A stretch of 64,000 bases of DNA from a virus (Duplodnaviria > Heunggongvirae > Uroviricota > Caudoviricetes). The position numbers and the translations under genes were made by a program. Within the stretch, counting starts at the first letter, position 1; the number at the start of each line of letters is the position of its first letter. The DNA is taken from positions 111,223-175,222 of the IMG/VR virus record IMGVR_UViG_3300000976_000008; one strand, 5' to 3'. Under the pieces are notes generated by a model. It was not told where the DNA came from, searched no databases, and saw only the letters and a list, made by a program, of their open reading frames with translations. Below, piece by piece: positions 24,852 to 57,055 of this stretch.

Positions 24852-25157
24852 TTAAGTCGCTGGTTGGCGAGATTCGAGATCGACAGTCGTGGGTGACATG
24901 TCGATATCCTTCAATCCCATGACGACGAAGCCCGGTTGCTGCTGAAAATCAGTCATGTAGCTGACGATTTTTCGGAGTCCGCGACCCGTGAAGTTCTCTA
25001 TCTGTGGTAACCATTCGCGTATGTCCAGAATGTCTCCCACGCGATAATCGCGATCGTTTTTGCGAATCTCGAACGGCTTTTCGCCGTCCCAGATTTTTGC
25101 GAAGTATTCGGGCCAGCACTTCAAGACATGGACGCTGGGGCGTTTTGGCTGGTTCAT
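24852..25157 (-). CDS. ASCH/DUF3850 domain protein
   Basis: HVLKCWPEYF..GEKPFEIRKNDRDYRVGDILDIREW. Confidence 0.85.
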   Translation of the reverse strand: MNQPKRPSVHVLKCWPEYFAKIWDGEKPFEIRKNDRDYRVGDILDIREWLPQIENFTGRGLRKIVSYMTDFQQQPGFVVMGLKDIDMSPTTVDLESRQPAT

Positions 25158-25164
25158 ATCTACT

Positions 25165-26676
25165 TCAATTTGATTGTGGTACTAATCCGTGGACTAGACA
25201 CACGTTGCGGATTACTTCCATTTGGATCGTCACAGATCGTGTCGTAATTCCCAAGAATTTGGCGATATGATTCTTTTTAGGACGATCATCTCCGTGTTCG
25301 TCTGAGAATCTGTTGTAAATCTCTCCAAGTCCGCATTGGATGTCGAAGATGTCTTGACAGACTCCTTCTGGAAGCGATTCTCGAACAGCTACGATTACGT
25401 CATTTGTGTCGATAACTGCTACGTGATCGTCTTGGTTCATCTTTTCTGCCCCGATGGTCCGGAATGAGATTTGGCTGATGGTGAAATCTCCATCAGCGTC
25501 TCCGGTGCCGGTTGAATTGTTGTCCAAAACCAGCACGTGTTCCGGTCTGGAGACCAAAGCTTTAAGCTCTCCAGCCATCTTGTTTTCGATAACGTGGATC
25601 TCTCGCCGATCACACTGTATCTCAACGCCACTGGTTTTTCCTTTTTTAACCAATACGGCTAGTTCTGCTGTGAATTCGGGGGGAGTTAGTAGACCCACAA
25701 CGGCGATTGTGTATTTTCCTCGCTTCGGACTGTCTTCTTTGCAGTAGTGGAAGTCAATCTTCATCTTTTTGCAGAGTGCTAGGATCTCTTCTACGATAAT
25801 CTCGTCTGCTCTGCCGCTGATTTCTCGCGGTTCTTTGCGATGCTCTTTGCGGCTGTTTTCAGCGAGTTGTTGCCGGAAGTAATTCCAGACGAATTCTCCG
25901 AAGAATTTGGACAATTGCTTATCGTCACTGAGGATTTTGTTGGGGTCGGAGTATTTCTTATCCCCTTTGGTGTAAGCAATTGGCGATTCGGATTTTGGTG
26001 CTCTTTGAACTGGTGTGAAGTTCTTGTAGCTATCTTGGAATTCCTTGATGGTAATATATGACCCAACTATTAGGTCCGTATCACCGGCTTCAATCACCCT
26101 CGTCTTTTTGCAATTTGGGCAGTCGATCTTTTGGCGATCGATGTTTCTGACGACTTTTTGCTGAGTGACCCAGGTACTTGATCCACAATTTTCGCAGTGG
26201 AATGTATACTTACGATGGTAGAGAAGTTCTACTGTAGCTTTCCAGACTGCCACTTGGAATTCGATGTCTCCGCACCGTTTATCACTTGAGTAGTCGGCTC
26301 CAATTGTGTTGCCAAGTTCGTCGATCACTCCTGCTCGGTGCTTTGCCATTGCTGGGTGACCTGAAACGTACTGAACGACGTCTGAAACGTGCTTTTCTTC
26401 CTCTGGCGTCAGAGATTTCATTGTTACGTTGGCCAGAGATCCGCGTAGGTATAACTCAGGCATCTGTCTAACAAGACCCATGTTGATTGTACTTTCAGTT
26501 GTTTGTTGAGATGAAACGTTGCAAACTGCGAAGTAATTTTTGGAACTCTCGACACATACATCTGTATTGTGGAAAGAACCATCCGGTAATTTGTTGCAAA
26601 AGGTAGGCGATGAGTCAATATTGCGATAGCAAGGTTTTGGAACGCAACTGGTTCCAATGGATTGTGTCCTCGGCAA
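25165..26676 (-). CDS. Divergent sigma70-like factor with Zn-ribbon insertion (true start probably downstream of 26676)
   Basis: Region-2-like EFQVAVWKAT and FFGEFVWNYFRQQL; CENC/CPNC insert; C-terminal HTH KNHIAKFLGITTRSVTIQMEVIR. Confidence 0.55.
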   Translation of the reverse strand: MPRTQSIGTSCVPKPCYRNIDSSPTFCNKLPDGSFHNTDVCVESSKNYFAVCNVSSQQTTESTINMGLVRQMPELYLRGSLANVTMKSLTPEEEKHVSDVVQYVSGHPAMAKHRAGVIDELGNTIGADYSSDKRCGDIEFQVAVWKATVELLYHRKYTFHCENCGSSTWVTQQKVVRNIDRQKIDCPNCKKTRVIEAGDTDLIVGSYITIKEFQDSYKNFTPVQRAPKSESPIAYTKGDKKYSDPNKILSDDKQLSKFFGEFVWNYFRQQLAENSRKEHRKEPREISGRADEIIVEEILALCKKMKIDFHYCKEDSPKRGKYTIAVVGLLTPPEFTAELAVLVKKGKTSGVEIQCDRREIHVIENKMAGELKALVSRPEHVLVLDNNSTGTGDADGDFTISQISFRTIGAEKMNQDDHVAVIDTNDVIVAVRESLPEGVCQDIFDIQCGLGEIYNRFSDEHGDDRPKKNHIAKFLGITTRSVTIQMEVIRNVCLVHGLVPQSN

Positions 26677-27389
26677 CTCCTGAGCTTGATCCTTTCCGGA
26701 ACGCAGGAATCTTGTGGACCAAAATTGTTGGCACGGTTAAAAAAGATGACGGGAGTGATCTTTTAAAGAATGGGAAGCCGTTGGACGATCCTTCTTACCC
26801 AACTCGTTCACATTGTCTCGCTTTTGGTCACCCAATCTATTTCAACAGTTACAACGGCAAACCGCAGTCATCGGGCCTCATCTTTGTTGATGAAGAATCC
26901 CGATCGATTGAAATAAAGCCTTTATCAGATGAGTTACACCTCCTATCGGACTCTTGGGTCCACAATTTTGATCAGCCTCTTAACCAACAGACATTTATTC
27001 CACACATCGAAGTCAACAAATACTTCAAAGAGATGGCTTCTGAAGTAGCTTGGCACGCAATTCTTTCAGATATTGATAAGATGTGCCAAGGAATAGCGAT
27101 GAACTTCAAGCAGGGTTCTGAAGAAGAACGTATGGATCTTGCCAACGAAGCTCTTTTGCAAGTGACAAACAAACTTGTCAATAAGAAATTGGTATACACA
27201 CCAGGCAGAGCACCGGTATTCAACTTGCTCACGACGACAATTTTCCGGTGCATGTATTCTATAATGAATCGGCGTAATAATAGAAAACGCGGTCAAGCGA
27301 GACTATTGGAAGAAGCCGAAGCAGGAATTCTACCGAATGCACGACGGTCTCTGAGAATTCCAAAAAGACGACCCATTAAATCAAACTAG
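26610..27389 (+). CDS. Sigma70 region-2-only factor (gp55-like architecture)
   Basis: IDKMCQGIAMNF..EERMDLANEALLQV..YTPGRAPVFNLLTTTIFRCMYSIMNR. Confidence 0.55.
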   Translation: MSQYCDSKVLERNWFQWIVSSATPELDPFRNAGILWTKIVGTVKKDDGSDLLKNGKPLDDPSYPTRSHCLAFGHPIYFNSYNGKPQSSGLIFVDEESRSIEIKPLSDELHLLSDSWVHNFDQPLNQQTFIPHIEVNKYFKEMASEVAWHAILSDIDKMCQGIAMNFKQGSEEERMDLANEALLQVTNKLVNKKLVYTPGRAPVFNLLTTTIFRCMYSIMNRRNNRKRGQARLLEEAEAGILPNARRSLRIPKRRPIKSN

Positions 27390-27526: not shown

Positions 27527-27784
27527 ATGATACAAAAGCATCCCACGGAGGGAGAACCACCGCAGGATGTGTTACAAATTTTCGAAACTAACCAAGAAGC
27601 AATAATTATTACGCTGAACCCAGACCATACGTCTGAAGGCGAATTTAATATAGAGTGCTTCATGAAACTTGAAGATGATAATGGGAAATTATCCCAATAT
27701 CTTGCAAGCATCCTAGAAAATTTGCTGGCAAAAGATGGTAAACCAAGTAGTAACATCGAGACTGAGGCCACAACTAGTCCGTAA
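27527..27784 (+). CDS. Hypothetical acidic protein
   Basis: 85-aa ORF. Confidence 0.5.
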   Translation: MIQKHPTEGEPPQDVLQIFETNQEAIIITLNPDHTSEGEFNIECFMKLEDDNGKLSQYLASILENLLAKDGKPSSNIETEATTSP

Positions 27785-28694
27785 AAACACAGTTGTGAAG
27801 ATACCACCGACTGTCAAAGCAGTGGTAAAAGCACTCAATAAACCGGTTGCTACTCAAGAACAAGTCAAAAAGGCGAAACAAAAAGCCAAACTACAAGCTC
27901 AACCTAAACCAGTGCGAAAAGTCCCAGTAGTAGCACAACTTGGGGCAGTAGTTCAAAAGAAAACAAGACGGAACGTAAAACGCCGACGAAAACCTCAAGT
28001 CAAGTACGTGACTAGGGATGTTTCATCTGAATCCTTGAGCAAGATTAGAAAACTGCAAGGAATCGGCACCAACAAAATACTAGTAATTGTTGGCAACGGG
28101 CCATCTATTTCAGAAGCCCCACTAGAGAAATTGGCTAATATTGACAATATAGATATACTGTCAATAAACCAGCCAGATAAGAGAGTATGGCCAACTAAAT
28201 ACTGGGCTTTTTTTGATAGCTCCCAACTAAAAAGACACAAAGAGTTGTGGAATAATTATGATGGTACCATATTTAATAGTACCGCAATAAAAAATCAAAA
28301 AGATCTCTCAATGCAATTTAAGAACATTGGGGGCCAAGGCTTCAGTAGAGATCTTTCCTCAGGACTTTATATAGGAAGATCCTCGGTCTACGCATCGATG
28401 CAATTAGCATTATGGATGAATTATTCGCACACATACATCTTTGGATGCGATATGAATCCAGAAGGATTAGATGGAAAACTCCACTTTTATGGGGTAAATC
28501 CGGATGTAGATCCTAAGAATCGAGCTGATAGATTCGCAAAAGAAGCTGAACATTATGACGTAGCAGCTCGTGTATTGTCAGAGGAAGAACGTAGCAAGTT
28601 TACATTTTGCTCTGATTACAATCATTGGGAATTCGTAAGCAAATTCAACAGAGCCAGTCATAAAGATGTTTCTAGAATATTGAATAATGACTGA
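27735..28694 (+). CDS. Basic N-terminal tail plus DUF115/GT42-like (sialyltransferase-fold) domain
   Basis: VIVGNGPSI, LSINQ, SSVYASMQLALWM..YIFGCDM..HFYG. Confidence 0.7.
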   Translation: MVNQVVTSRLRPQLVRKNTVVKIPPTVKAVVKALNKPVATQEQVKKAKQKAKLQAQPKPVRKVPVVAQLGAVVQKKTRRNVKRRRKPQVKYVTRDVSSESLSKIRKLQGIGTNKILVIVGNGPSISEAPLEKLANIDNIDILSINQPDKRVWPTKYWAFFDSSQLKRHKELWNNYDGTIFNSTAIKNQKDLSMQFKNIGGQGFSRDLSSGLYIGRSSVYASMQLALWMNYSHTYIFGCDMNPEGLDGKLHFYGVNPDVDPKNRADRFAKEAEHYDVAARVLSEEERSKFTFCSDYNHWEFVSKFNRASHKDVSRILNND

Positions 28695-28771: not shown

Positions 28772-29161
28772 ATGAAAATCTACGTCGGCAGCAGTCTACT
28801 TAATTCTAAACGAGTTAAGGAAGTACAACAGCGTTTTAAAGATGCTGGTTGCATTATAACTTATGACTGGACTGTTCACGGTCAAGTGACCGATGAAGAA
28901 TTATTGGCTAAATATGCTGTTGCAGAATTGCAAGGCGTAAAAGAAGCTGATATATTTTTCATGCTCTTGCCTGGCAGAAACGGCACGCACTTTGAGATGG
29001 GTGTAGCCCACGCAAGTGGCAAGAAGATAGTGATGCTCATCGAACAAGATCAAGAATTGAAGACATTCTATTATCTTGATGGTGTCGAACGTTTCACCGA
29101 AGAAGATCTTGCATTTGATTACGTTATCGATTTCTTGAAGAATATGGAAATTGCTGGATGA
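28772..29161 (+). CDS. Nucleoside 2-deoxyribosyltransferase/NMP N-glycosidase fold protein
   Basis: MKIYVGS..VKEADIFF..GTHFEMGVAHASGKKIV (catalytic Glu retained); start set at MKIY. Confidence 0.8.
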   Translation: MKIYVGSSLLNSKRVKEVQQRFKDAGCIITYDWTVHGQVTDEELLAKYAVAELQGVKEADIFFMLLPGRNGTHFEMGVAHASGKKIVMLIEQDQELKTFYYLDGVERFTEEDLAFDYVIDFLKNMEIAG

Positions 29162-29859
29162 TTTTTACCAGACTAGAAATAGATGTAATGCAAGCCAATG
29201 AATTGGTTGATGCATCAGAATTGGCGGCTAAACACAAATTTCCAGCATTAGTCGTGCACCAAGATTTGGCCTCTGAAGCACAAATAATTCGTGGTCGAAT
29301 TCGCGGCAGATACAAATTGATAACACCTATTGATTGGCCTAAAGGAGAAACTTACGGTCAAAATAAATTGAGAGGTTTATCAACAGACGCTCTAGATAAT
29401 GATGGATTTGAGATTCTGCTGACTGGTGAGAGAACCGTAACTGAGACACGCAGAGAAGCGAAAGATATCTCAGAATTCGTGAAAACACACATCGATCAAT
29501 CTTTAGAAGTGCGTTTCGTGCTTGGAACAAATTTGCGAACAGAAGAAAATATTCGCAATATGTGTATTGCTTTGCAAGATGTAAGGATGCCAGCCTTTGT
29601 AAGAAACGATACAGCTCTAAAATTACAAGTTAGCAGAGCTAATCCTGATGTTCATAAAGCTAATATGGGAATCATCACCGAATATATGAGAGTCCCAATG
29701 AAAATCAGTGGTAATATTAATAGTGTGCGTGCCATAACATCTTGCACAAACGCAAAAAGATTCGCTGTCAATCTACTTCAAGCAAAAGGTATAACTAAGG
29801 AGTTCCTGCAACAGCCGGAAGAACTTAGAGCCTTGCTTGATTCAGAAGATGGAAAATAA
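29158..29859 (+). CDS. DeoC (deoxyribose-phosphate aldolase)-like TIM barrel, divergent
   Basis: ITPIDWPKG..K ~ TVIGFPLG..K; PMKISGNI ~ VKASGGI; FVRNDT where DeoC has FVKTST. Confidence 0.55.
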   Translation: MIFTRLEIDVMQANELVDASELAAKHKFPALVVHQDLASEAQIIRGRIRGRYKLITPIDWPKGETYGQNKLRGLSTDALDNDGFEILLTGERTVTETRREAKDISEFVKTHIDQSLEVRFVLGTNLRTEENIRNMCIALQDVRMPAFVRNDTALKLQVSRANPDVHKANMGIITEYMRVPMKISGNINSVRAITSCTNAKRFAVNLLQAKGITKEFLQQPEELRALLDSEDGK

Positions 29860-30181
29860 ATTAATTATTTGCCCATACTGTAGCAACAGCGTAAGCGAAG
29901 TAGACTCGAACAACTACTATTGTGTATGTTGCGAGAAGAATCTCAGATTTACGTTCGAAACCCAAACATTGCTATATAGGAACTTTAAGCCTATTTCTGA
30001 GGAAATTCCAAAAGTATTTGAAATAGGTGAGGAGGTGCTCTTTGCTAATAGAGAGCATCCTTGGTACAACAAATTAGGGATAATTTGTGAAAGGAAACAC
30101 AAACAGTATCGAATTGAAATCAACGGCAAAAAACTTTGGGTGCCCAACGAATGGGTAAAAGAGAATCAAAATGGACATTAA
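29837..30181 (+). CDS. Zn-ribbon plus KOW/SH3-like small protein
   Basis: CPYC..CVCC; FEIGEEV..GIIC..YRIEINGKKLWV. Confidence 0.55.
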   Translation: MIQKMENKLIICPYCSNSVSEVDSNNYYCVCCEKNLRFTFETQTLLYRNFKPISEEIPKVFEIGEEVLFANREHPWYNKLGIICERKHKQYRIEINGKKLWVPNEWVKENQNGH

Positions 30182-30551
30182 TCTAAAGGGCCGGATTAAT
30201 GAATTGGGGCAAGACTCCACTTTGTTAACCAGACATGATGATTGGCTTGAAACTCAAAGAGCTTCTTTGCAGGGCGACTTAGAAGATAAAGCAACTCAAC
30301 TAAAAGCTGTACTGCTAGCACAACGAATCAAACGTGCTCTTCAACAAAAGAACCTTGTAGCAGTCCAACAATTGATCAAATCAAACGATGGGGACGTTGT
30401 TGATATAGTGATCAATATAATGAAATTGCCAGACGCACTATTGGCATTAAGAACAGAAACCACCGAATTAGATAAAGCCAACGCTCAGGCACAAATCTTC
30501 GGATGGGATAGAGATGGTTACGATACCGTCACGTCTAGTAAACTGAGATAA
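30171..30551 (+). CDS. Hypothetical helical protein
   Basis: 126-aa ORF. Confidence 0.65.
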   Translation: MDINLKGRINELGQDSTLLTRHDDWLETQRASLQGDLEDKATQLKAVLLAQRIKRALQQKNLVAVQQLIKSNDGDVVDIVINIMKLPDALLALRTETTELDKANAQAQIFGWDRDGYDTVTSSKLR

Positions 30552-30615: not shown

Positions 30616-31779
30616 ATGCAAAATCGCAGTTTTAATGTAGTAACAGACGGTGCTTGGGGCAGTTGCGGTAAAGGGCTTATAACAACAGCTCTAGCATCAA
30701 AGCATCAGCCAGAAATAATTTCGACCACAAATATGGCCAACGCAGGCCATACCGCCGTTTATGATGATGGTCGGAAATTCATAGCCAAAGTCTTGCCATC
30801 AGCTGCTGCACTCCGAAAATGGGTCGATGGTTATGATCCCCACATCGTTGTAGGAAGCACAGCTGCATTTACTATTGAGCAGCTTCATAAAGAGATCCAG
30901 GAAACAGGGTCCAATTATCAGTTAACTATCCACGAGAGAGCAGGGATAATAACTGAAGCTCAACGCCAAGCAGAACAAAGCTTGAAAACCGGCACCAAAC
31001 ATCTAGCAAGCACAATGCAGGGATGTGGTGCATTCCTCGCCGACAAGGTGATGAGAAGAAAAGAGCTTAAACTCGCCAGCGACTACGAAGAGCTAAAAGC
31101 TTACATGCCATCAAGCATGGGAAGTAAAATCGATAATGTCGAATCCGAAATAAACCGAAGACTCGAAGGAATGAGTCTCCCGATGGCACTGTCGACACTG
31201 GTCAAAGAATTCGATATGACCATTCTACACGAAGGTGCCCAAGGTTTCTCTCTCGACATCAACCACGGTTCGCACTATCCTCAATGCACAAGCAGAGGAA
31301 CAACCGCGATACAGAACCTATCTGATATGGGATTACCCCACACAATGATGGGAGACGTTTATCTCGTAATCAGACCGTACCCGATTAGAGTCGGCAATGT
31401 TGTCGAAGAAGGGAAAACTGTTGGTCACTCTGGTGATTGTTATGATGACCACAAAGAGACAACATGGAGAGAAGTTGCTGAATCTGCAGGTGCACCACCA
31501 GAAGTGATGGATGGTGAATTAACCACAGTAACAAAGAGACTGAGAAGAGTCTTCGAATTCTCCGAGAAGCAACTCAAAGAAGCTGTGCTTGTAAACGGTG
31601 CCACCAAGATAGCATTGAATTTCGCCAATTATCTTGATTGGTCATGCTATGGTACCAACGAATACGAAAAATTGCCTAAGAAAGTCACTGAATTCATCTG
31701 CAAGGTAGAAGATGTTGCTGGTATTCCAGTGACTGTTGTAGGAACAGGACCACAAAACAACCATGTCTGCTTCATCTGA
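30616..31779 (+). CDS. purZ: PurZ-type 2-amino-deoxyadenylosuccinate synthase (adenylosuccinate synthetase family)
   Basis: WGSCGKG (Ser replacing PurA Asp13), NMANAGHT, EGAQGFSL, PIRVG, ELTTVTKRLRRVF, LNFANY; strong AAGGAG RBS. Confidence 0.85.
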   Translation: MQNRSFNVVTDGAWGSCGKGLITTALASKHQPEIISTTNMANAGHTAVYDDGRKFIAKVLPSAAALRKWVDGYDPHIVVGSTAAFTIEQLHKEIQETGSNYQLTIHERAGIITEAQRQAEQSLKTGTKHLASTMQGCGAFLADKVMRRKELKLASDYEELKAYMPSSMGSKIDNVESEINRRLEGMSLPMALSTLVKEFDMTILHEGAQGFSLDINHGSHYPQCTSRGTTAIQNLSDMGLPHTMMGDVYLVIRPYPIRVGNVVEEGKTVGHSGDCYDDHKETTWREVAESAGAPPEVMDGELTTVTKRLRRVFEFSEKQLKEAVLVNGATKIALNFANYLDWSCYGTNEYEKLPKKVTEFICKVEDVAGIPVTVVGTGPQNNHVCFI

Positions 31780-31866: not shown

Positions 31867-32697
31867 ATGGGTGAGACAAGTAGTATATCCGGATCGAGTA
31901 ACAGAAGGTTACTCAGAGTCGCCGCTTACTTGGAAGAAGCGGGGGAAGATCCCGAAACAGCCTGTGACAACCTCTTAGAGTTAGACATACCCTATATCGC
32001 ATTGAAGCAGGTCTGGACCGACAATATAGGCAGAATACCAGATCCTGCTTGCCAAAAACTCCAAAAAGTCATCCAATCGAAAAAGATGACAGTAATAATG
32101 CTCGCCACCGAACTAGGCGAAGTGTCTGCTGACGAATTGAAAAGCGTCAGAGATGAAGAAATAGAACGAATCTTCAATAGGGCAGCATACTTCCAAGCAC
32201 CATTTATAAGGATTGGTATAGGTAAATCATGTTCTGTTGATTGCCACGATGAAGTAAATGAATGGATGAATAGAATAACTCATAAAGCCATCCAGTATAA
32301 TGTAACACCAGTTATAGAGATAACTCACAATTCATTTGTCGATAAACCAAGTGATATAGCAACGATATTGTTGACACATAAACGTTGGAAACTCCTGTAC
32401 GATCCCGCCCAATACATTCTTCGCAAGAAACAAGACCCATTTATTAAGTATTGGACGTTGCTTAAGTCTAACACTGCTGTAATTGATGTTAGGGATCTGA
32501 AAATAGGCAAAGGATTCAAAGCACCAGGATTTGGAGATTCAAGGATTGGGGATACAATAAAAGACGCCATAGATTCAAATTACGATGGTTGGTATGTAAT
32601 TGAACCATCCCTCGGAAGAAGACATGGTAGTGCACTTTCTAAGAAAGAGACGTTCACTCAAGCCGTAAGTGCATTTGATGTTCTATTAGAGCAGTAA
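31867..32697 (+). CDS. Xylose-isomerase-like (AP_endonuc_2) TIM barrel with partly degenerate metal sites
   Basis: YIALKQVWTDNI, PVIE, LLYDPAQ, IDVRD, PGFGDSRI, GWYVIEP. Confidence 0.7.
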   Translation: MGETSSISGSSNRRLLRVAAYLEEAGEDPETACDNLLELDIPYIALKQVWTDNIGRIPDPACQKLQKVIQSKKMTVIMLATELGEVSADELKSVRDEEIERIFNRAAYFQAPFIRIGIGKSCSVDCHDEVNEWMNRITHKAIQYNVTPVIEITHNSFVDKPSDIATILLTHKRWKLLYDPAQYILRKKQDPFIKYWTLLKSNTAVIDVRDLKIGKGFKAPGFGDSRIGDTIKDAIDSNYDGWYVIEPSLGRRHGSALSKKETFTQAVSAFDVLLEQ

Positions 32698-42199: not shown

Positions 42200-42671
42200 C
42201 AAAGGCGTAAATGTCAATTTCAATATTGGCGAAGGATCTCAAGTTAATGCCCCCATCTCTGGAGACGTTAACAGTCCGTCTAACACATACTCTGTCGGAG
42301 AGACGGATCAGATTGCTAAATTCTTCGAGTCTCTTAAAGTAGAACTTGAAAAGGATGAAGCGGAAGCACGATCAGTCTGGGAAGCACCGGTCACTGAACT
42401 TAAAGCATTGGCTGCAGAAACTCCAAGCGAACCAACACCGCCAGCAGCGATGGCGGAAAGTGCTGATGGCGGTACAGCAGAGCCGATGAGCCTCTTCTCA
42501 GGAATTGAAGAAAGATGCGTCAGTTTGATCGAAAGTATCAAACCATATGCTGGCACAATTGCTCGTGCTGTGGCTATCTTCGGAACTGAGGTATTGAAAT
42601 CAATGGCCTCGAAGAATCCGATTATTTCAGGAATTGTCGCCGTCGCTGAAGAATTTTCAGAAGACGATTAG
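42135..42671 (+). CDS. Hypothetical protein (likely start 42189, MSDDKG)
   Basis: GAGGA RBS upstream of 42189. Confidence 0.6.
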   Translation: MLNPKLIRTPTHQQTRIKMSDDKGVNVNFNIGEGSQVNAPISGDVNSPSNTYSVGETDQIAKFFESLKVELEKDEAEARSVWEAPVTELKALAAETPSEPTPPAAMAESADGGTAEPMSLFSGIEERCVSLIESIKPYAGTIARAVAIFGTEVLKSMASKNPIISGIVAVAEEFSEDD

Positions 42672-43303
42672 TAACCAAATTCGACATTGATGTACTTGAA
42701 CCCTAGATTTTGGAGATGAATTAACGCTTTGTCCCCGATATCTGGGGCCATCAAGTATCCAAAGACATCAAAACCATCGGTTTGTAAGACCTCGACATAT
42801 CTTCTAACTTGACCACAATCTGATATAGTGGCTTTCCTTCTCTTTACTTCAATTACATGCTTTGTTTGGTCGAATTCAGTACCCAATATATCAATAGCAC
42901 CGTGCTCAGTCTTAAATTCTCTGACTATACTGAAACATTCAATGTCAAAATAGTCGGGCCAATCATTAAAGACCTTTAAAACGAGTTCCTTTTCGGTTCG
43001 TCTAAGTTTAACTGAATCTTCAGACCAATCTTCAAGATTAGAAAATGTGATGACCTTATCAATGAAGATACTGATCTTCTCACTCTTCTTAGCAAAAACG
43101 AGAGTATCACCATCCTTGATCTCTCCAGATACTAATATAGCACCTGACCCCAAGTAATTGCGGGCCGGAATAAGTCCTCCAGCGTGTACGGAAACAGATC
43201 CGTCATTCTTCCTCATCAAGAGGAAATTGCCTGGTCCAAGAAGACCCAAAGCACGGCCATTATATTCTACTCGACCGTGGAAGTAAAGGATGAAACTGGG
43301 CAT
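42668..43303 (-). CDS. nucS: NucS/EndoMS-family endonuclease
   Basis: VEYNGRA..L..G..LLMRKNDGSVSVH; E..REFKTEHGAIDIL..VIEVKRR..GQVRRY..GYLMAP. Confidence 0.85.
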   Translation of the reverse strand: MPSFILYFHGRVEYNGRALGLLGPGNFLLMRKNDGSVSVHAGGLIPARNYLGSGAILVSGEIKDGDTLVFAKKSEKISIFIDKVITFSNLEDWSEDSVKLRRTEKELVLKVFNDWPDYFDIECFSIVREFKTEHGAIDILGTEFDQTKHVIEVKRRKATISDCGQVRRYVEVLQTDGFDVFGYLMAPDIGDKALIHLQNLGFKYINVEFGY

Positions 43304-55257: not shown

Positions 55258-55742
55258 TAGACAGCGAAGTAATAATTTATACAGATGGTAGCTGCTTCCC
55301 AAATCCGGGTCCTGGAGGGTGGGGAAGTATATTGCTATTTGAAAATGACGAAAGAAAATTTGAGAAAGAGATTTCCGGTGGGGACCGGGAAAGCACCAAT
55401 AATAGAATGGAAATGCAAGCTGTAATTGGTGCCCTAGAAGCTTTGAAAAGACCATGCAACGTAAAGATCTATTCAGATAGTCAGTACGTTGTAAAAGGTG
55501 TGGGTTGTTGGATAAACGGCAGCAATATTCATCCAACAGGATGGATGGTAGGCTGGGAACGAAGAGGTTGGAAACGCAAGGATGGACCACTGAAAAATAG
55601 TGACCTCTGGAAAAAACTCCATGAACTAGTATGCCGCCAAGAGAGCGTCCAAATGGTCTGGGTAAAAGGCCATGACGGAAACGAACTCAATGAAAGATGC
55701 GACGTACTTGCCCTTAAAGCTAGGACTGAACTCAATGTATGA
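55248..55742 (+). CDS. rnhA: Ribonuclease HI
   Basis: YTDGSC.PNPGPGGWG, TNNRME, SDSQYV, KNSDLW, WVKGH, NERCD. Confidence 0.95.
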   Translation: MDMIDSEVIIYTDGSCFPNPGPGGWGSILLFENDERKFEKEISGGDRESTNNRMEMQAVIGALEALKRPCNVKIYSDSQYVVKGVGCWINGSNIHPTGWMVGWERRGWKRKDGPLKNSDLWKKLHELVCRQESVQMVWVKGHDGNELNERCDVLALKARTELNV

Positions 55743-56244
55743 CACAGACGAACATCTTGAAAACCTCATTAGGCATATCGAACTTGTAAGAAATGCCTGC
55801 ACTCTCCTTGGTCGAAGATTGATCAAAAAAGGAAGAGTGGATATAGGTCGCCTGCTCATAGCACGTGGACACGTCCACGATGCTACCAAATTCCAAGGAA
55901 TCGAATGGGATTATCTTCATTCAGGACCAGACACACCAAAGGAAGAACTAAAACTCGCAATTAAACAGCACGTCAGAACTAATTCTCACCACCCAGAATT
56001 TCATGGTGGGTTGGAGAAAATGCCAGAGCTAGACGTAGCTGAAATGGTTTGTGACTGGTATGCACGTGCTCAAGAATTCGGAACAAGTCTGAGAGACTGG
56101 ATCTCTAAAGACGCAATTCAACGTTATCGAATCGAAGTAGACGGCACACACCACGAAATGATCAACAAATATGTTGACATGCTGCTTCAAGACCCATTCA
56201 ACAAGTCAGTCGAAGCGAAAGAAGTACAAGAATCGGTTATATAG
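55672..56244 (+). CDS. HD-like phosphohydrolase (DUF5662-like); likely start 55738
   Basis: RHI..VHDATK..H..NSHHPE..EMVCDW. Confidence 0.7.
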   Translation: MTETNSMKDATYLPLKLGLNSMYDTDEHLENLIRHIELVRNACTLLGRRLIKKGRVDIGRLLIARGHVHDATKFQGIEWDYLHSGPDTPKEELKLAIKQHVRTNSHHPEFHGGLEKMPELDVAEMVCDWYARAQEFGTSLRDWISKDAIQRYRIEVDGTHHEMINKYVDMLLQDPFNKSVEAKEVQESVI

Positions 56245-56479
56245 TCCTCAAACTAGTTGACTTCTTAGAGATTAACCAATACGAGTTAATCATAGTACCT
56301 GGTGAATATACCAACAAATCTTGGTTCTTAAGAGACGAACTGGACCAAGCAGAGGATATACTCGCATATGAAGTGAAATCTGACGTATTTAAAAGCGAGC
56401 ATCGAGTTGTAATTACAAGACAAGACAAAACACAACTCGAATTATACCTCATAGGTACAGAAATCAGGGACAAAATCTG

Positions 56480-57055
56480 ATGCTGCGACTCAAACGACTA
56501 AGTAAGAACGATCTTGATCTCCCAAAATACGAGACAGATCAATCATCCGGCATCGACTTCGCAGCATGTCTAACAAGAACCTGCAAACTTGTAAACCACA
56601 GGCTGAAAGAAAAGACGAAATTCCTAACGGTCAATAATACTGCCGGTAGGACGAGACACTCATTCGTCGAAGATGAAGCACCAGAAATTCCTCAAACCAG
56701 CAATAATGGTGAGGAAATCATACTTGATATCAGGTGTGGAGAAACTATCATGGTCCCACTAGGGTGGGCCTGTGGATTTGAAGAGAATTTCGTCATGCAA
56801 CTGCATGTCAGATCATCTATCGGTTTGAATGGTCTTACTCTTGCTAACTCTACTGGGATTATCGATTCTGACTATCGCGGTGAACTCTTCGCTTGCCTCT
56901 ATAACAGAACAAGTGCACCGATTCAGATTACGCACGGGCAAAGAATCGTCCAAGCCATCATGTTGAAATGCGATCAGATGGATATCCGAGAAGAAGCAGA
57001 ATTGATGGAAACTGCTCGCGGCGAAGGCGGATTCGGTTCAACTGGAACGGCGTAA
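56480..57055 (+). CDS. dut: Trimeric dUTPase with an insertion between motifs 1 and 2
   Basis: SGIDF, RSSIG, GIIDSDYRGE, RIVQ, RGEGGFGSTG. Confidence 0.93.
   Translation: MLRLKRLSKNDLDLPKYETDQSSGIDFAACLTRTCKLVNHRLKEKTKFLTVNNTAGRTRHSFVEDEAPEIPQTSNNGEEIILDIRCGETIMVPLGWACGFEENFVMQLHVRSSIGLNGLTLANSTGIIDSDYRGELFACLYNRTSAPIQITHGQRIVQAIMLKCDQMDIREEAELMETARGEGGFGSTGTA

What the first reader, a model, noticed from the sequence alone, without database searches (positions are those of the whole stretch)
28772..29859. NDT-fold glycosidase plus DeoC-like barrel upstream of purZ: candidate DatZ-independent route for removing dAMP
Seen: two ATGA-overlapping genes about 0.75 kb upstream of purZ, same strand. 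The first keeps the NDT catalytic Glu (GTHFEMGVA); the second has DeoC-like motifs (DWPKG..K, MKISGNI). Established: NDT-fold enzymes of the Rcl/DNPH1 and MilB type cleave (d)NMPs into base plus (deoxy)ribose-5-phosphate, and deoxyribose-5-phosphate is the DeoC substrate. Z phages must deplete dATP. Inference: the pair could destroy dAMP or swap bases instead of using DatZ. Caveat: the DeoC Schiff-base Lys appears replaced (FVRNDT vs FVKTST), so aldolase activity is doubtful.
Basis: inference. Interest (0 to 1): 0.72.

Follow-up and report, generated by a model that had tools for sequence, protein, structure and literature searches.

The report
Base-splitting enzyme plus re-tooled aldolase
A 408-kb uncultured phage that carries the key enzyme for putting 2-aminoadenine (Z) into DNA also keeps, just upstream, a coupled gene pair: a nucleotide base-splitting enzyme of a kind already shown in 2026 to destroy dAMP, and an undescribed relative of deoxyribose-phosphate aldolase whose catalytic lysine sits on a different strand of the barrel.

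Summary
Two genes overlap by ATGA (28772-29161 and 29158-29859, + strand) 757 nt upstream of a PurZ-type gene.

Gene A is an NDT-superfamily N-glycosidase with an intact Tyr4/Glu52/Glu75 triad. Its residues point to a 2'-deoxynucleoside 5'-monophosphate substrate.

Gene B has no Pfam or PHROG family. It is a remote homologue of DERA (VIA-align Z 23; hhalign 94%). The Schiff-base Lys is Arg149 in 130 of 135 family members. The neighbouring Lys (K201 equivalent, K182) is kept. One nested clade has the reverse arrangement, with Lys on beta6 and none on beta7. A catalytic amine therefore seems preserved, so an altered aldolase is as likely as a dead one.

The pair lies in a conserved block of a huge-phage lineage. 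Of 42 contigs with the barrel, 39 have an NDT gene directly upstream and 41 have a PurZ-type gene downstream.

The genome has no HD/DatZ or MazG gene. It has two dUTPase-family genes.

The NDT idea is already published (DmtZ, NAR 2026), but this protein is not a DmtZ orthologue. The barrel is new. No substrate was tested.

This scan has already reported the same module on three other genomes.

The parts
28772..29161 (+). Gene A, 129 aa: NDT-superfamily N-glycosidase with triad Tyr4/Glu52/Glu75 and the subfamily motif T-Y-D-W-T-x-H-G
   Evidence: Pfam PF05014 31.9 bits, cut-off 28.8. PDB sequence hits to BcmB and MilB CMP N-glycosidases, E 4e-5 to 3e-4. AF2 pLDDT 96.3. Foldseek hits to BcmB, NDT, DNPH1 and MilB. 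Invariant residues in 17 orthologues.
29158..29859 (+). Gene B, 233 aa: DERA-derived TIM barrel of an unnamed family. Arg149 sits at the Schiff-base Lys position. Lys182 sits at the K201 position, Glu85 at D102 and Arg119 at K137.
   Evidence: No Pfam or PHROG hit. AF2 pLDDT 92.4. DERA 6d33 Z 23.2, rmsd 2.3 A, 203 residues aligned, against Z 16.8 for the next family. hhalign against a DERA alignment: 93.9%, E 1.6e-7. Residue statistics.
27735..28694 (+). Conserved upstream neighbour, 319 aa: basic N-terminal tail plus a weakly MptE-like/DUF115-type domain (G-N-G-P-S motif). It is the most constant partner of the pair.
   Evidence: Pfam PF01973 E 2.4e-4, below cut-off. Present next to the pair in nearly all loci. 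Weak, non-significant Cst-II sialyltransferase hits, E 0.05.
29837..30181 (+). Small Cys-rich (zinc-ribbon-like) ORF between gene B and purZ, conserved in many relatives
30171..30551 (+). Small helical ORF between gene B and purZ, conserved in many relatives
30616..31779 (+). PurZ-type adenylosuccinate-synthetase homologue with N-terminal G-S-C-G-K-G (Ser at the PurA Asp13 position)
   Evidence: PHROG 1211 E 1.8e-61 and Pfam PF00709 E 1.3e-35. Best GenBank phage matches are PurZ phages: SH-Ab 15497 37.6%, phiVC8 33.4%. The Ser motif is kept in 36 of 41 relatives read.
31867..32697 (+). Xylose-isomerase-like/AP_endonuc_2 TIM barrel directly after purZ. It is found in the closer relatives only.
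   Evidence: Pfam PF01261 E 5.7e-10
56480..57055 (+). Divergent second dUTPase-family gene. It lacks the usual D-A-G-x-D-L motif and is a candidate dATP/dGTP pyrophosphatase that could feed gene A. This role is inferred only.
   Evidence: Pfam PF00692 E 4e-18. A second, canonical copy lies elsewhere in the genome. Alignment with a DutZ domain.

Best explanation
The two genes form a translationally coupled, two-step deoxynucleotide-disposal module.

Step 1, gene A. An NDT-superfamily N-glycosidase cleaves a 2'-deoxynucleoside 5'-monophosphate into free base plus 2-deoxyribose 5-phosphate (dR5P). It would do so through the usual covalent Glu75 intermediate, with Tyr4 and Glu52 completing the triad.

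Step 2, gene B. A protein descended from deoxyribose-phosphate aldolase takes the dR5P. Its Schiff-base lysine on strand beta6 has been replaced by arginine, but the neighbouring beta7 lysine (K182) is kept. Most likely K182 now carries the amine chemistry and Arg149 supplies the adjacent positive charge, so dR5P is still cleaved or otherwise consumed.

Context. The genome has a PurZ-type gene, two dUTPase-family genes and no DatZ- or MazZ-type gene. In that setting the module would be the sink for dAMP, running dATP to dAMP to adenine plus dR5P. That would be a functional analogue of the published DutZ/DmtZ route, assembled from different proteins.

Shown here: folds, homology, residue mapping, gene coupling, lineage-wide conservation and absence of the classical helper families. 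Inferred: every substrate, the direction of chemistry in gene B, and the link to Z-DNA.
For: Gene A:
- It passes the PF05014 gathering score and has the NDT fold.
- Tyr4, Glu52, Gly71, His73 and Glu75 are invariant in 17 orthologues.
- The Tyr occupies the position where MilB has Phe17. The F17Y change switches MilB from CMP to dCMP (PMC4081090), which argues for a 2'-deoxy substrate.
- The residue 6 before the catalytic Glu is Arg or Gly (my reading of the alignment). From my own knowledge, nucleoside-specific NDTs have an Asp there that binds the 5'-OH. Gly71 aligns with MilB Gly99, which contacts the phosphate. Both points argue for a 5'-phosphate substrate.

Gene B:
- DERA fold, Z 23.2, and homology at hhalign 93.9%, E 1.6e-7.
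- All 8 DERAs in a joint alignment show D/K/K/K where this protein has E85/R119/R149/K182.
- K182 is kept in 126 of 135 members. The 5 members with Lys at 149 all lack Lys at 182. They form a clade with support 1.0, nested inside the family, with a coherently swapped residue set.
- The beta7 S-G-N and beta8 motifs resemble DERA's phosphate-binding loops.

Coupling:
- ATGA overlap.
- An NDT-type gene lies directly upstream of the barrel in 39 of 42 contigs. It comes in two divergent NDT types that occupy the same slot.

Z context:
- A PurZ-type gene lies downstream in 41 of 42 contigs, with the Ser signature.
- No HD, YfbR, HD_3 or MazG in the complete 408-kb genome.
- Two dUTPase-family genes.

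Precedent: DmtZ, an NDT-family dAMP hydrolase and dR5P transferase working with DutZ in PurZ0 phages (PMC12884076). NDT (PF05014) is also enriched in dZ phage metagenomes (bioRxiv 10.1101/2025.10.22.683976).
Against: - No substrate was tested and base specificity is unknown. Gene A lacks the Asp12 that the DmtZ paper ties to dAMP recognition; Leu10/Asn11 stand there.
- Gene A's closest sequence relatives are CMP glycosidases, not purine enzymes.
- Arg cannot form a Schiff base, and use of the K201-equivalent lysine as nucleophile has no precedent that I know of.
- 4 of 135 family members show neither Lys149 nor Lys182. The only invariant lysine is K70, whose position in the pocket I could not inspect.
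- The barrel occurs without an NDT gene in three contigs (L207, L208, L215) and in a rearranged genome.
- The pair occurs without an adjacent purZ in L219, L008 and G122.
- None of about 214 GenBank phages with a PurZ/PurZ0-type match has either protein.
- Co-location extends over a 15-kb syntenic core, so it may simply reflect one lineage's genome order.
- Whether these phages contain Z at all is unproven.
Confidence: 0.42

Rival explanations
1. Gene B is not an aldolase. The DERA scaffold has been re-used for different chemistry on a phosphorylated sugar or nucleotide, for example isomerisation or elimination. Alternatively it acts as a non-catalytic binder or regulator. Gene A would still cleave dNMPs.
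For: The Schiff-base Lys is Arg in 130 of 135 members. Five pocket positions differ from DERA at once. The pocket holds many conserved charged residues: E7, D59, K70, E100, R119, D151. HMMER profiles do not connect the family to DERA or to Pfam DeoC. Four members lack both lysines.
Against: Strong purifying conservation, and the coupled Lys149/Lys182 swap, suggest that one amine is needed. The phosphate-loop motifs are kept. The constant pairing with an enzyme predicted to release dR5P fits a dR5P consumer.
Confidence: 0.25
2. The weakly MptE-like gene, the NDT gene and the barrel form a module of their own that has nothing specific to do with Z-DNA. It could be general sanitation or recycling of host-derived deoxynucleotides, or a step in another base or sugar modification. 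In that case purZ is merely a neighbour in a conserved replication and nucleotide-metabolism region.
For: The weakly MptE-like gene is the most constant neighbour. In the complete genome G122 the trio stays together while purZ lies 185 kb away. L219 and L008 show the pair or the barrel with no purZ in the visible flank. In L221 the barrel sits next to a dCMP deaminase, and in L008 next to a dUTPase/DCD gene. Synteny runs from SbcC-like to VWA genes, so linkage alone is weak evidence.
Against: Every sufficiently long relative examined has a PurZ-type gene, including G122. The family was not found in any GenBank phage, nor in the pattern-limited scan of prokaryotic genomes. It is therefore known so far only from the PurZ-bearing lineage. 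Published NDT enzymes in Z phages act on dA or dAMP.
Confidence: 0.2
3. Gene A works mainly as a transferase that swaps bases at the monophosphate level (dAMP plus Z base giving dZMP plus adenine), as DmtZ can. Gene B does not consume its product.
For: DmtZ shows about 20% transfer in vitro. Pro67 is invariant in the subfamily. The DmtZ paper links a conserved Pro (Pro57) to water exclusion in transferases.
Against: No source of free Z base is evident in the genome. Equivalence of Pro67 to that Pro was not established. The tight coupling to a dR5P-type barrel fits hydrolysis better.
Confidence: 0.08

Closest known systems
DmtZ (with DutZ) of PurZ0 actinophages Ghobes and Wayne (Poubanne et al., Nucleic Acids Res 2026, PMC12884076)
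   Same: NDT-superfamily fold. Tyr / acid-or-amide / Glu catalytic triad. Encoded by a phage with a PurZ-type gene that lacks DatZ. A dUTPase-family paralogue is present in the genome. The predicted product is dR5P.
   Different: Not an orthologue: 23% identity over 86 residues, E 0.079, against the DmtZ domain of Arthrobacter phage Riovina. No tblastn match in 50,697 GenBank phages. The Asp12 equivalent is absent. Glu52 replaces Asn77. It is not fused to the Dut gene. The PurZ here is nearer the PurZ group (33-38% identity) than the PurZ0 phages (27-29%). The host phage is a 408-kb DnaE-type huge phage. It is paired with a DERA-like gene, which DmtZ phages lack.
Deoxyribose-phosphate aldolase, DERA/DeoC (EC 4.1.2.4; e.g. 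PDB 6d33, 1jcl)
   Same: Same TIM-barrel fold along its whole length (Z 23, rmsd 2.3 A). Detectable homology. The F/W-P-x-G loop after beta3 is shared. The K201-equivalent Lys and the S-G-x loop on beta7 are shared. There is an acid at the D102 position.
   Different: 14-16% identity and no Pfam DeoC hit. The Schiff-base Lys167 is Arg, K137 is Arg, D102 is Glu. The beta6-alpha6 loop is longer and carries invariant Asp151. The family is virus-only as far as searched.
MilB, BcmB and BlsM CMP N-glycosidases, and DNPH1/Rcl dNMP N-hydrolase
   Same: These are the best sequence and fold matches of gene A. The P-G-T-H-x-E-x-G-x-A catalytic segment is shared. They act on nucleoside monophosphates.
   Different: Gene A has Tyr where MilB has Phe17, which predicts deoxy rather than ribo substrates. 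It lacks the P-F-(R/K) cytosine/hmC cage. It has its own T-Y-D-W-T-x-H-G loop.

Membership tests
Nucleoside 2-deoxyribosyltransferase superfamily (Pfam PF05014) | Sequence match above the curated threshold | tested here: met
   31.9 bits against a 28.8 cut-off; found again in the genome search
Nucleoside 2-deoxyribosyltransferase superfamily (Pfam PF05014) | Flavodoxin-like NDT fold | tested here: met
   AF2 pLDDT 96.3. Foldseek hits to BcmB, NDT, DNPH1 and MilB, TM 0.6-0.7.
Nucleoside 2-deoxyribosyltransferase superfamily (Pfam PF05014) | Catalytic Glu nucleophile with the Tyr and acidic partners | tested here: met
   Glu75, Tyr4 and Glu52 are invariant in 17 orthologues. Glu75 aligns with the catalytic Glu of BcmB and MilB. 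The middle residue is Glu rather than Asp or Asn.
DmtZ (dAMP hydrolase / dR5P transferase) | Membership of the monophyletic DmtZ group (sequence relatedness) | tested here: not met
   E 0.079 and 23% identity to a DmtZ domain; no tblastn match in GenBank phages
DmtZ (dAMP hydrolase / dR5P transferase) | Asp12 proposed to read the 6-amino group of adenine | tested here: not met
   Leu10/Asn11 stand at that place (definition)
DmtZ (dAMP hydrolase / dR5P transferase) | dAMP-specific hydrolysis and transfer to Z base | not testable with these tools
   Needs an enzyme assay
DERA / DeoC class I aldolase (PF01791) | Sequence match to the family model | tested here: not met
   No Pfam hit for the protein or for 10 distant relatives. 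No PDB hit by sequence or profile. Homology is seen only by profile-profile comparison.
DERA / DeoC class I aldolase (PF01791) | DERA-type (beta/alpha)8 barrel | tested here: met
   Z 23.2, rmsd 2.3 A, 203 residues aligned; Foldseek E 1e-11
DERA / DeoC class I aldolase (PF01791) | Schiff-base lysine on beta6 (E. coli K167) | tested here: not met
   Arg149 in this protein and in 130 of 135 family members
DERA / DeoC class I aldolase (PF01791) | Second lysine on beta7 (K201) and the acid on beta4 (D102) | tested here: met
   K182 and E85 align to them. The acid is Glu instead of Asp.
DERA / DeoC class I aldolase (PF01791) | Retro-aldol cleavage of dR5P | not testable with these tools
   Needs an enzyme assay
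PurZ (2-aminoadenylosuccinate synthetase), for the neighbouring gene | Ser in place of PurA Asp13, and closest relatives are PurZ | tested here: met
   G-S-C-G-K-G; PHROG 1211 E 1.8e-61; best phage matches are PurZ phages; criterion

The most novel reading that the evidence does not exclude
Gene B founds a virus-only family of class I aldolases whose catalytic lysine has moved from strand beta6 to beta7, and back again in one clade. Together with a non-DmtZ NDT glycosidase and a divergent dUTPase, it would make up a third, self-contained adenine-exclusion route (dATP to dAMP to adenine plus dR5P to triose plus acetaldehyde). That route would let DnaE-type huge phages build Z-DNA.
Probability: 0.25. 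Interest if true: 0.78.

Novelty: new variant of a known kind. Interest (0 to 1): 0.6.

Why it matters
Z-DNA has so far been demonstrated only in small siphoviruses and podoviruses that use DatZ/MazZ or DutZ/DmtZ helpers.

If this module works as inferred, a whole lineage of 100-400-kb phages would solve the same problem with a different glycosidase and with their own enzyme for the sugar-phosphate by-product. No described Z system has such an enzyme.

Gene B is also a natural experiment in enzyme evolution, independent of the Z question. It is a DERA scaffold in which the Schiff-base lysine is replaced while a neighbouring lysine is conserved. A clade with the reverse arrangement offers ready-made swap mutants. 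DERA is an industrial biocatalyst, so a variant with a relocated nucleophile could have practical interest.

Tried and rejected
- A complex prediction of gene A with gene B (own alignments) scored 0.00 in both runs, so the tool gave no verdict. It counts neither for nor against binding (a first attempt did not complete).
- hhalign of the family against the single E. coli DERA sequence gave nothing useful (probability 0.13%). It worked only after I built a 31-sequence DERA alignment.
- HMMER profile searches of PDB sequences found no DERA.
- tblastn of both proteins against 50,697 GenBank phages found no match.
- A pattern scan of 185,579 prokaryotic species genomes found no relative of gene B. 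The scan depends on a few patterns, so it is not proof of absence.
- The word-indexed homologue search for gene A found only two relatives. I took its orthologues from the loci instead.
- C-terminal extensions of longer gene B relatives carry no recognisable domain, so no informative fusion was found.
- Gordonia phage Archimedes genes 51 and 52 were checked as possible DmtZ and are not NDT-like.
- I considered gene B as a substitute for PurB (adenylosuccinate lyase). The genome has no Lyase_1 gene, but nor do known Z phages as far as I know, and nothing in the fold supports the idea, so it stays speculation.
- I considered a link between the CMP-glycosidase-like hits of gene A and a CMP-sugar transferase-like neighbour. 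I rejected it as the main reading because Tyr4 predicts deoxy substrates.
- The literature search found no paper on an NDT plus DERA-like pair in phages.

Full report
**What is there**

The window is part of a 408,349-bp virus record that CheckV rates complete. At 28772-29161 (+) lies a 129-aa gene, and at 29158-29859 (+) a 233-aa gene. The stop of the first and the start of the second share ATGA at 29158-29161. A PurZ-type gene follows at 30616-31779, after two small ORFs.

**Gene A**

- It passes the Pfam gathering score of Nuc_deoxyrib_tr (31.9 vs 28.8 bits) and hits three PHROG NDT families.
- By sequence its nearest solved relatives are the CMP N-glycosidases BcmB and MilB, and BlsM. The P-G-T-H-x-E-x-G-x-A segment aligns residue for residue.
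- An AlphaFold model built on 17 orthologues has pLDDT 96.3. It matches BcmB, bacterial NDTs, DNPH1/Rcl and MilB about equally. The superfamily is therefore certain and the subfamily is open.
- In the orthologues Tyr4, Trp33, His36, Glu52, Gly55, Pro67, Gly71, His73, Glu75 and Phe99 are invariant. The Tyr / acid / Glu triad is thus intact.

Two published structure-function rules bear on the substrate.

- MilB has Phe17 at the Tyr position, and F17Y reverses MilB from CMP to dCMP (PMC4081090). An invariant Tyr4 therefore predicts a 2'-deoxy substrate.
- In MilB, Ser97 and Gly99 (six and four residues before the catalytic Glu) contact the phosphate. Here those places hold Arg or Gly (Arg in 11 of 17, by my count of the alignment) and invariant Gly71. 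From my own knowledge, nucleoside-specific NDTs have an Asp there that binds the 5'-OH. This predicts a 5'-phosphate.

Base specificity cannot be read from the sequence.

**Gene B**

- It has no Pfam or PHROG family and no sequence or profile hit in the PDB.
- It has 123 close homologues on large metagenomic contigs. Only 220 representative clusters match among 1.84 billion proteins. Ten distant members checked are also family-less in Pfam.
- The model (pLDDT 92.4) matches DERA structures along its whole length: Foldseek E 1e-11 and VIA-align Z 23.2, rmsd 2.3 A, 203 residues, 15% identity. The next fold family scores Z 16.8. The ESM Atlas agrees.

To map residues I collected 30 DERAs of 30-100% identity from proteobacterial genomes and ran hhalign against a 135-member family alignment. 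The result was probability 93.9%, E 1.6e-7, over 175 columns. An independent joint MAFFT alignment places D/K/K/K of all 8 DERAs used opposite E85/R119/R149/K182.

This holds for 130 of 135 family members.

**A lysine that moves**

- K182, the equivalent of DERA K201, is kept in 126 of 135 members.
- The five members with Lys at 149 all lack Lys at 182 (Ile, Val or Thr there). They also carry Asp85, Cys or Ile119 and Glu151, instead of Glu85, Arg119 and Asp151.
- In a tree rooted with DERAs these five, plus one sister sequence, form a clade with support 1.0 nested inside the family. The root branch is long, so polarity is tentative.
- The local alignments around beta6 and beta7 are unambiguous.

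One active-site lysine is thus almost always kept, on one strand or the other. That fits retained amine catalysis better than a dead enzyme.

Two caveats apply. Four members have neither lysine. The only strictly invariant lysine is K70, and I could not place it in 3-D.

**Context**

- The pair lies in a conserved block: SbcC-like, p175, a minus-strand zinc-ribbon protein, p259, a weakly MptE-like gene, NDT, the barrel, small ORFs, PurZ, and in closer relatives an AP_endonuc_2-type barrel.
- I anchored a survey on the weakly MptE-like gene, which returned 44 IMG/VR contigs. The barrel is present in 42 of them.
- An NDT-type gene lies directly upstream in 39 of the 42. It comes in two divergent types that occupy the same slot: PF05014-like proteins of 120-150 aa, or PF15891-like proteins of 190-220 aa.
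- A PurZ-type gene lies downstream in 41 of the 42. Wherever the N-terminus could be read, it has G-S-x-G-K-G (36 of 41).

The exceptions matter.

- Three contigs have the barrel without an NDT gene.
- One genome has the block broken up (L181 and L024).
- The complete 395-kb genome G122 keeps the weakly MptE-like gene, the NDT gene and the barrel together, but has purZ 185 kb away.
- Fragments L219 and L008 show no purZ in the visible flank.
- The minor Lys149 type also occurs in the full block (L222).

Every relative found has all the genes, and synteny extends well beyond them. Co-occurrence therefore cannot separate functional linkage from shared ancestry.

**Z-pathway setting**

- The PurZ-type gene has Ser at the PurA Asp13 position and matches PHROG 1211. 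It is closest to PurZ of Acinetobacter phage SH-Ab 15497 and phiVC8. It meets the criterion used in PMC12884076.
- The genome has no HD, YfbR-like, HD_3, MazG or Lyase_1 gene.
- It has two dUTPase-family genes. One is canonical, inside a 367-aa protein. One is divergent, at window 56480-57055, and lacks the D-A-G-x-D-L motif.

This resembles the PurZ0 solution published in 2026. There DutZ makes dAMP from dATP, and DmtZ, an NDT-family enzyme, splits dAMP into adenine and dR5P and can transfer dR5P to Z base. A preprint also finds NDT enriched in dZ phage metagenomes.

Gene A is not a DmtZ orthologue, however (E 0.079; no GenBank phage match). It also lacks the Asp proposed to read adenine. None of the roughly 214 GenBank phages with a PurZ/PurZ0-type match has a relative of gene B.

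**Verdict**

A dNMP glycosidase feeding a DERA-derived partner is the best reading, at about 0.4.
- The Z-specific role is plausible but untested, and the glycosidase half of the idea is already in the literature.
- The barrel is the new element: an unnamed, apparently virus-only DERA offshoot with a relocated lysine.
- The same module was reported earlier in this scan on three other genomes, with the same general reading. The residue mapping against a DERA profile, the lysine swap clade, the two interchangeable NDT types and the anchored survey are added here.

Noticed in passing
window 27735-28694: The constant upstream neighbour has a very basic, Lys/Val/Pro/Gln-rich N-terminal 100 residues, followed by a domain with an I-V-G-N-G-P-S motif and an H-F-Y-G motif. 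It gives weak MptE-like/DUF115 hits and non-significant Cst-II sialyltransferase hits. It may be a CMP-sugar-type transferase or a pyrophosphokinase with a nucleic-acid-binding tail. It stays with the NDT/barrel pair even where purZ has moved away.
   Followed up: partly
window 55672-57055: A DUF5662 protein is directly followed by a divergent dUTPase-family protein that lacks the D-A-G-x-D-L motif. A canonical dUTPase domain sits in a 367-aa protein elsewhere in the genome (G000 384837-385223). Two Dut paralogues are also seen in PurZ0 phages such as Gordonia phage Archimedes.
   Followed up: partly
L218:12632-16327 and L212:14612-16876: In two related contigs the PurZ-type reading frame is 1232 and 755 residues long (stop to stop). 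It contains large insertions at conserved motifs. One begins with Cys right after the motif ending A-G-H and ends in H-N followed by Thr, which looks like an intein. L218 appears to hold two such insertions.
   Followed up: partly
L019:9346-10008 (= L003:5355-6017): In one 354-kb relative the NDT-type protein carries an N-terminal extension of about 90 residues with several C-x-x-C pairs (zinc-ribbon-like).
   Followed up: no
L008 (JGI 3300031952 contig, 22 kb): This is the most distant family member. Its locus has proteins of strikingly odd composition, rich in His, Thr, Pro, Ile, Asn and Lys. There the barrel sits next to a dUTPase/DCD gene and a weakly MptE-like gene, and an 800-nt stretch after it has no called gene.
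   Followed up: no
L221:381-1461: A Lys149-type barrel gene overlaps the start of a dCMP/cytidine deaminase-family gene on a 1.9-kb contig. This is another nucleotide-metabolism neighbour.
   Followed up: no
window 42668-43303 (-): A NucS/EndoMS-like endonuclease gene (both NucS domains).
   Followed up: no
window 24852-25157 (-) and 26610-27389 (+): Small conserved genes of the syntenic block, between the SbcC-like gene and the weakly MptE-like gene, have no family. The 503-aa minus-strand protein at 25165-26676 has a zinc-ribbon signature.
   Followed up: no
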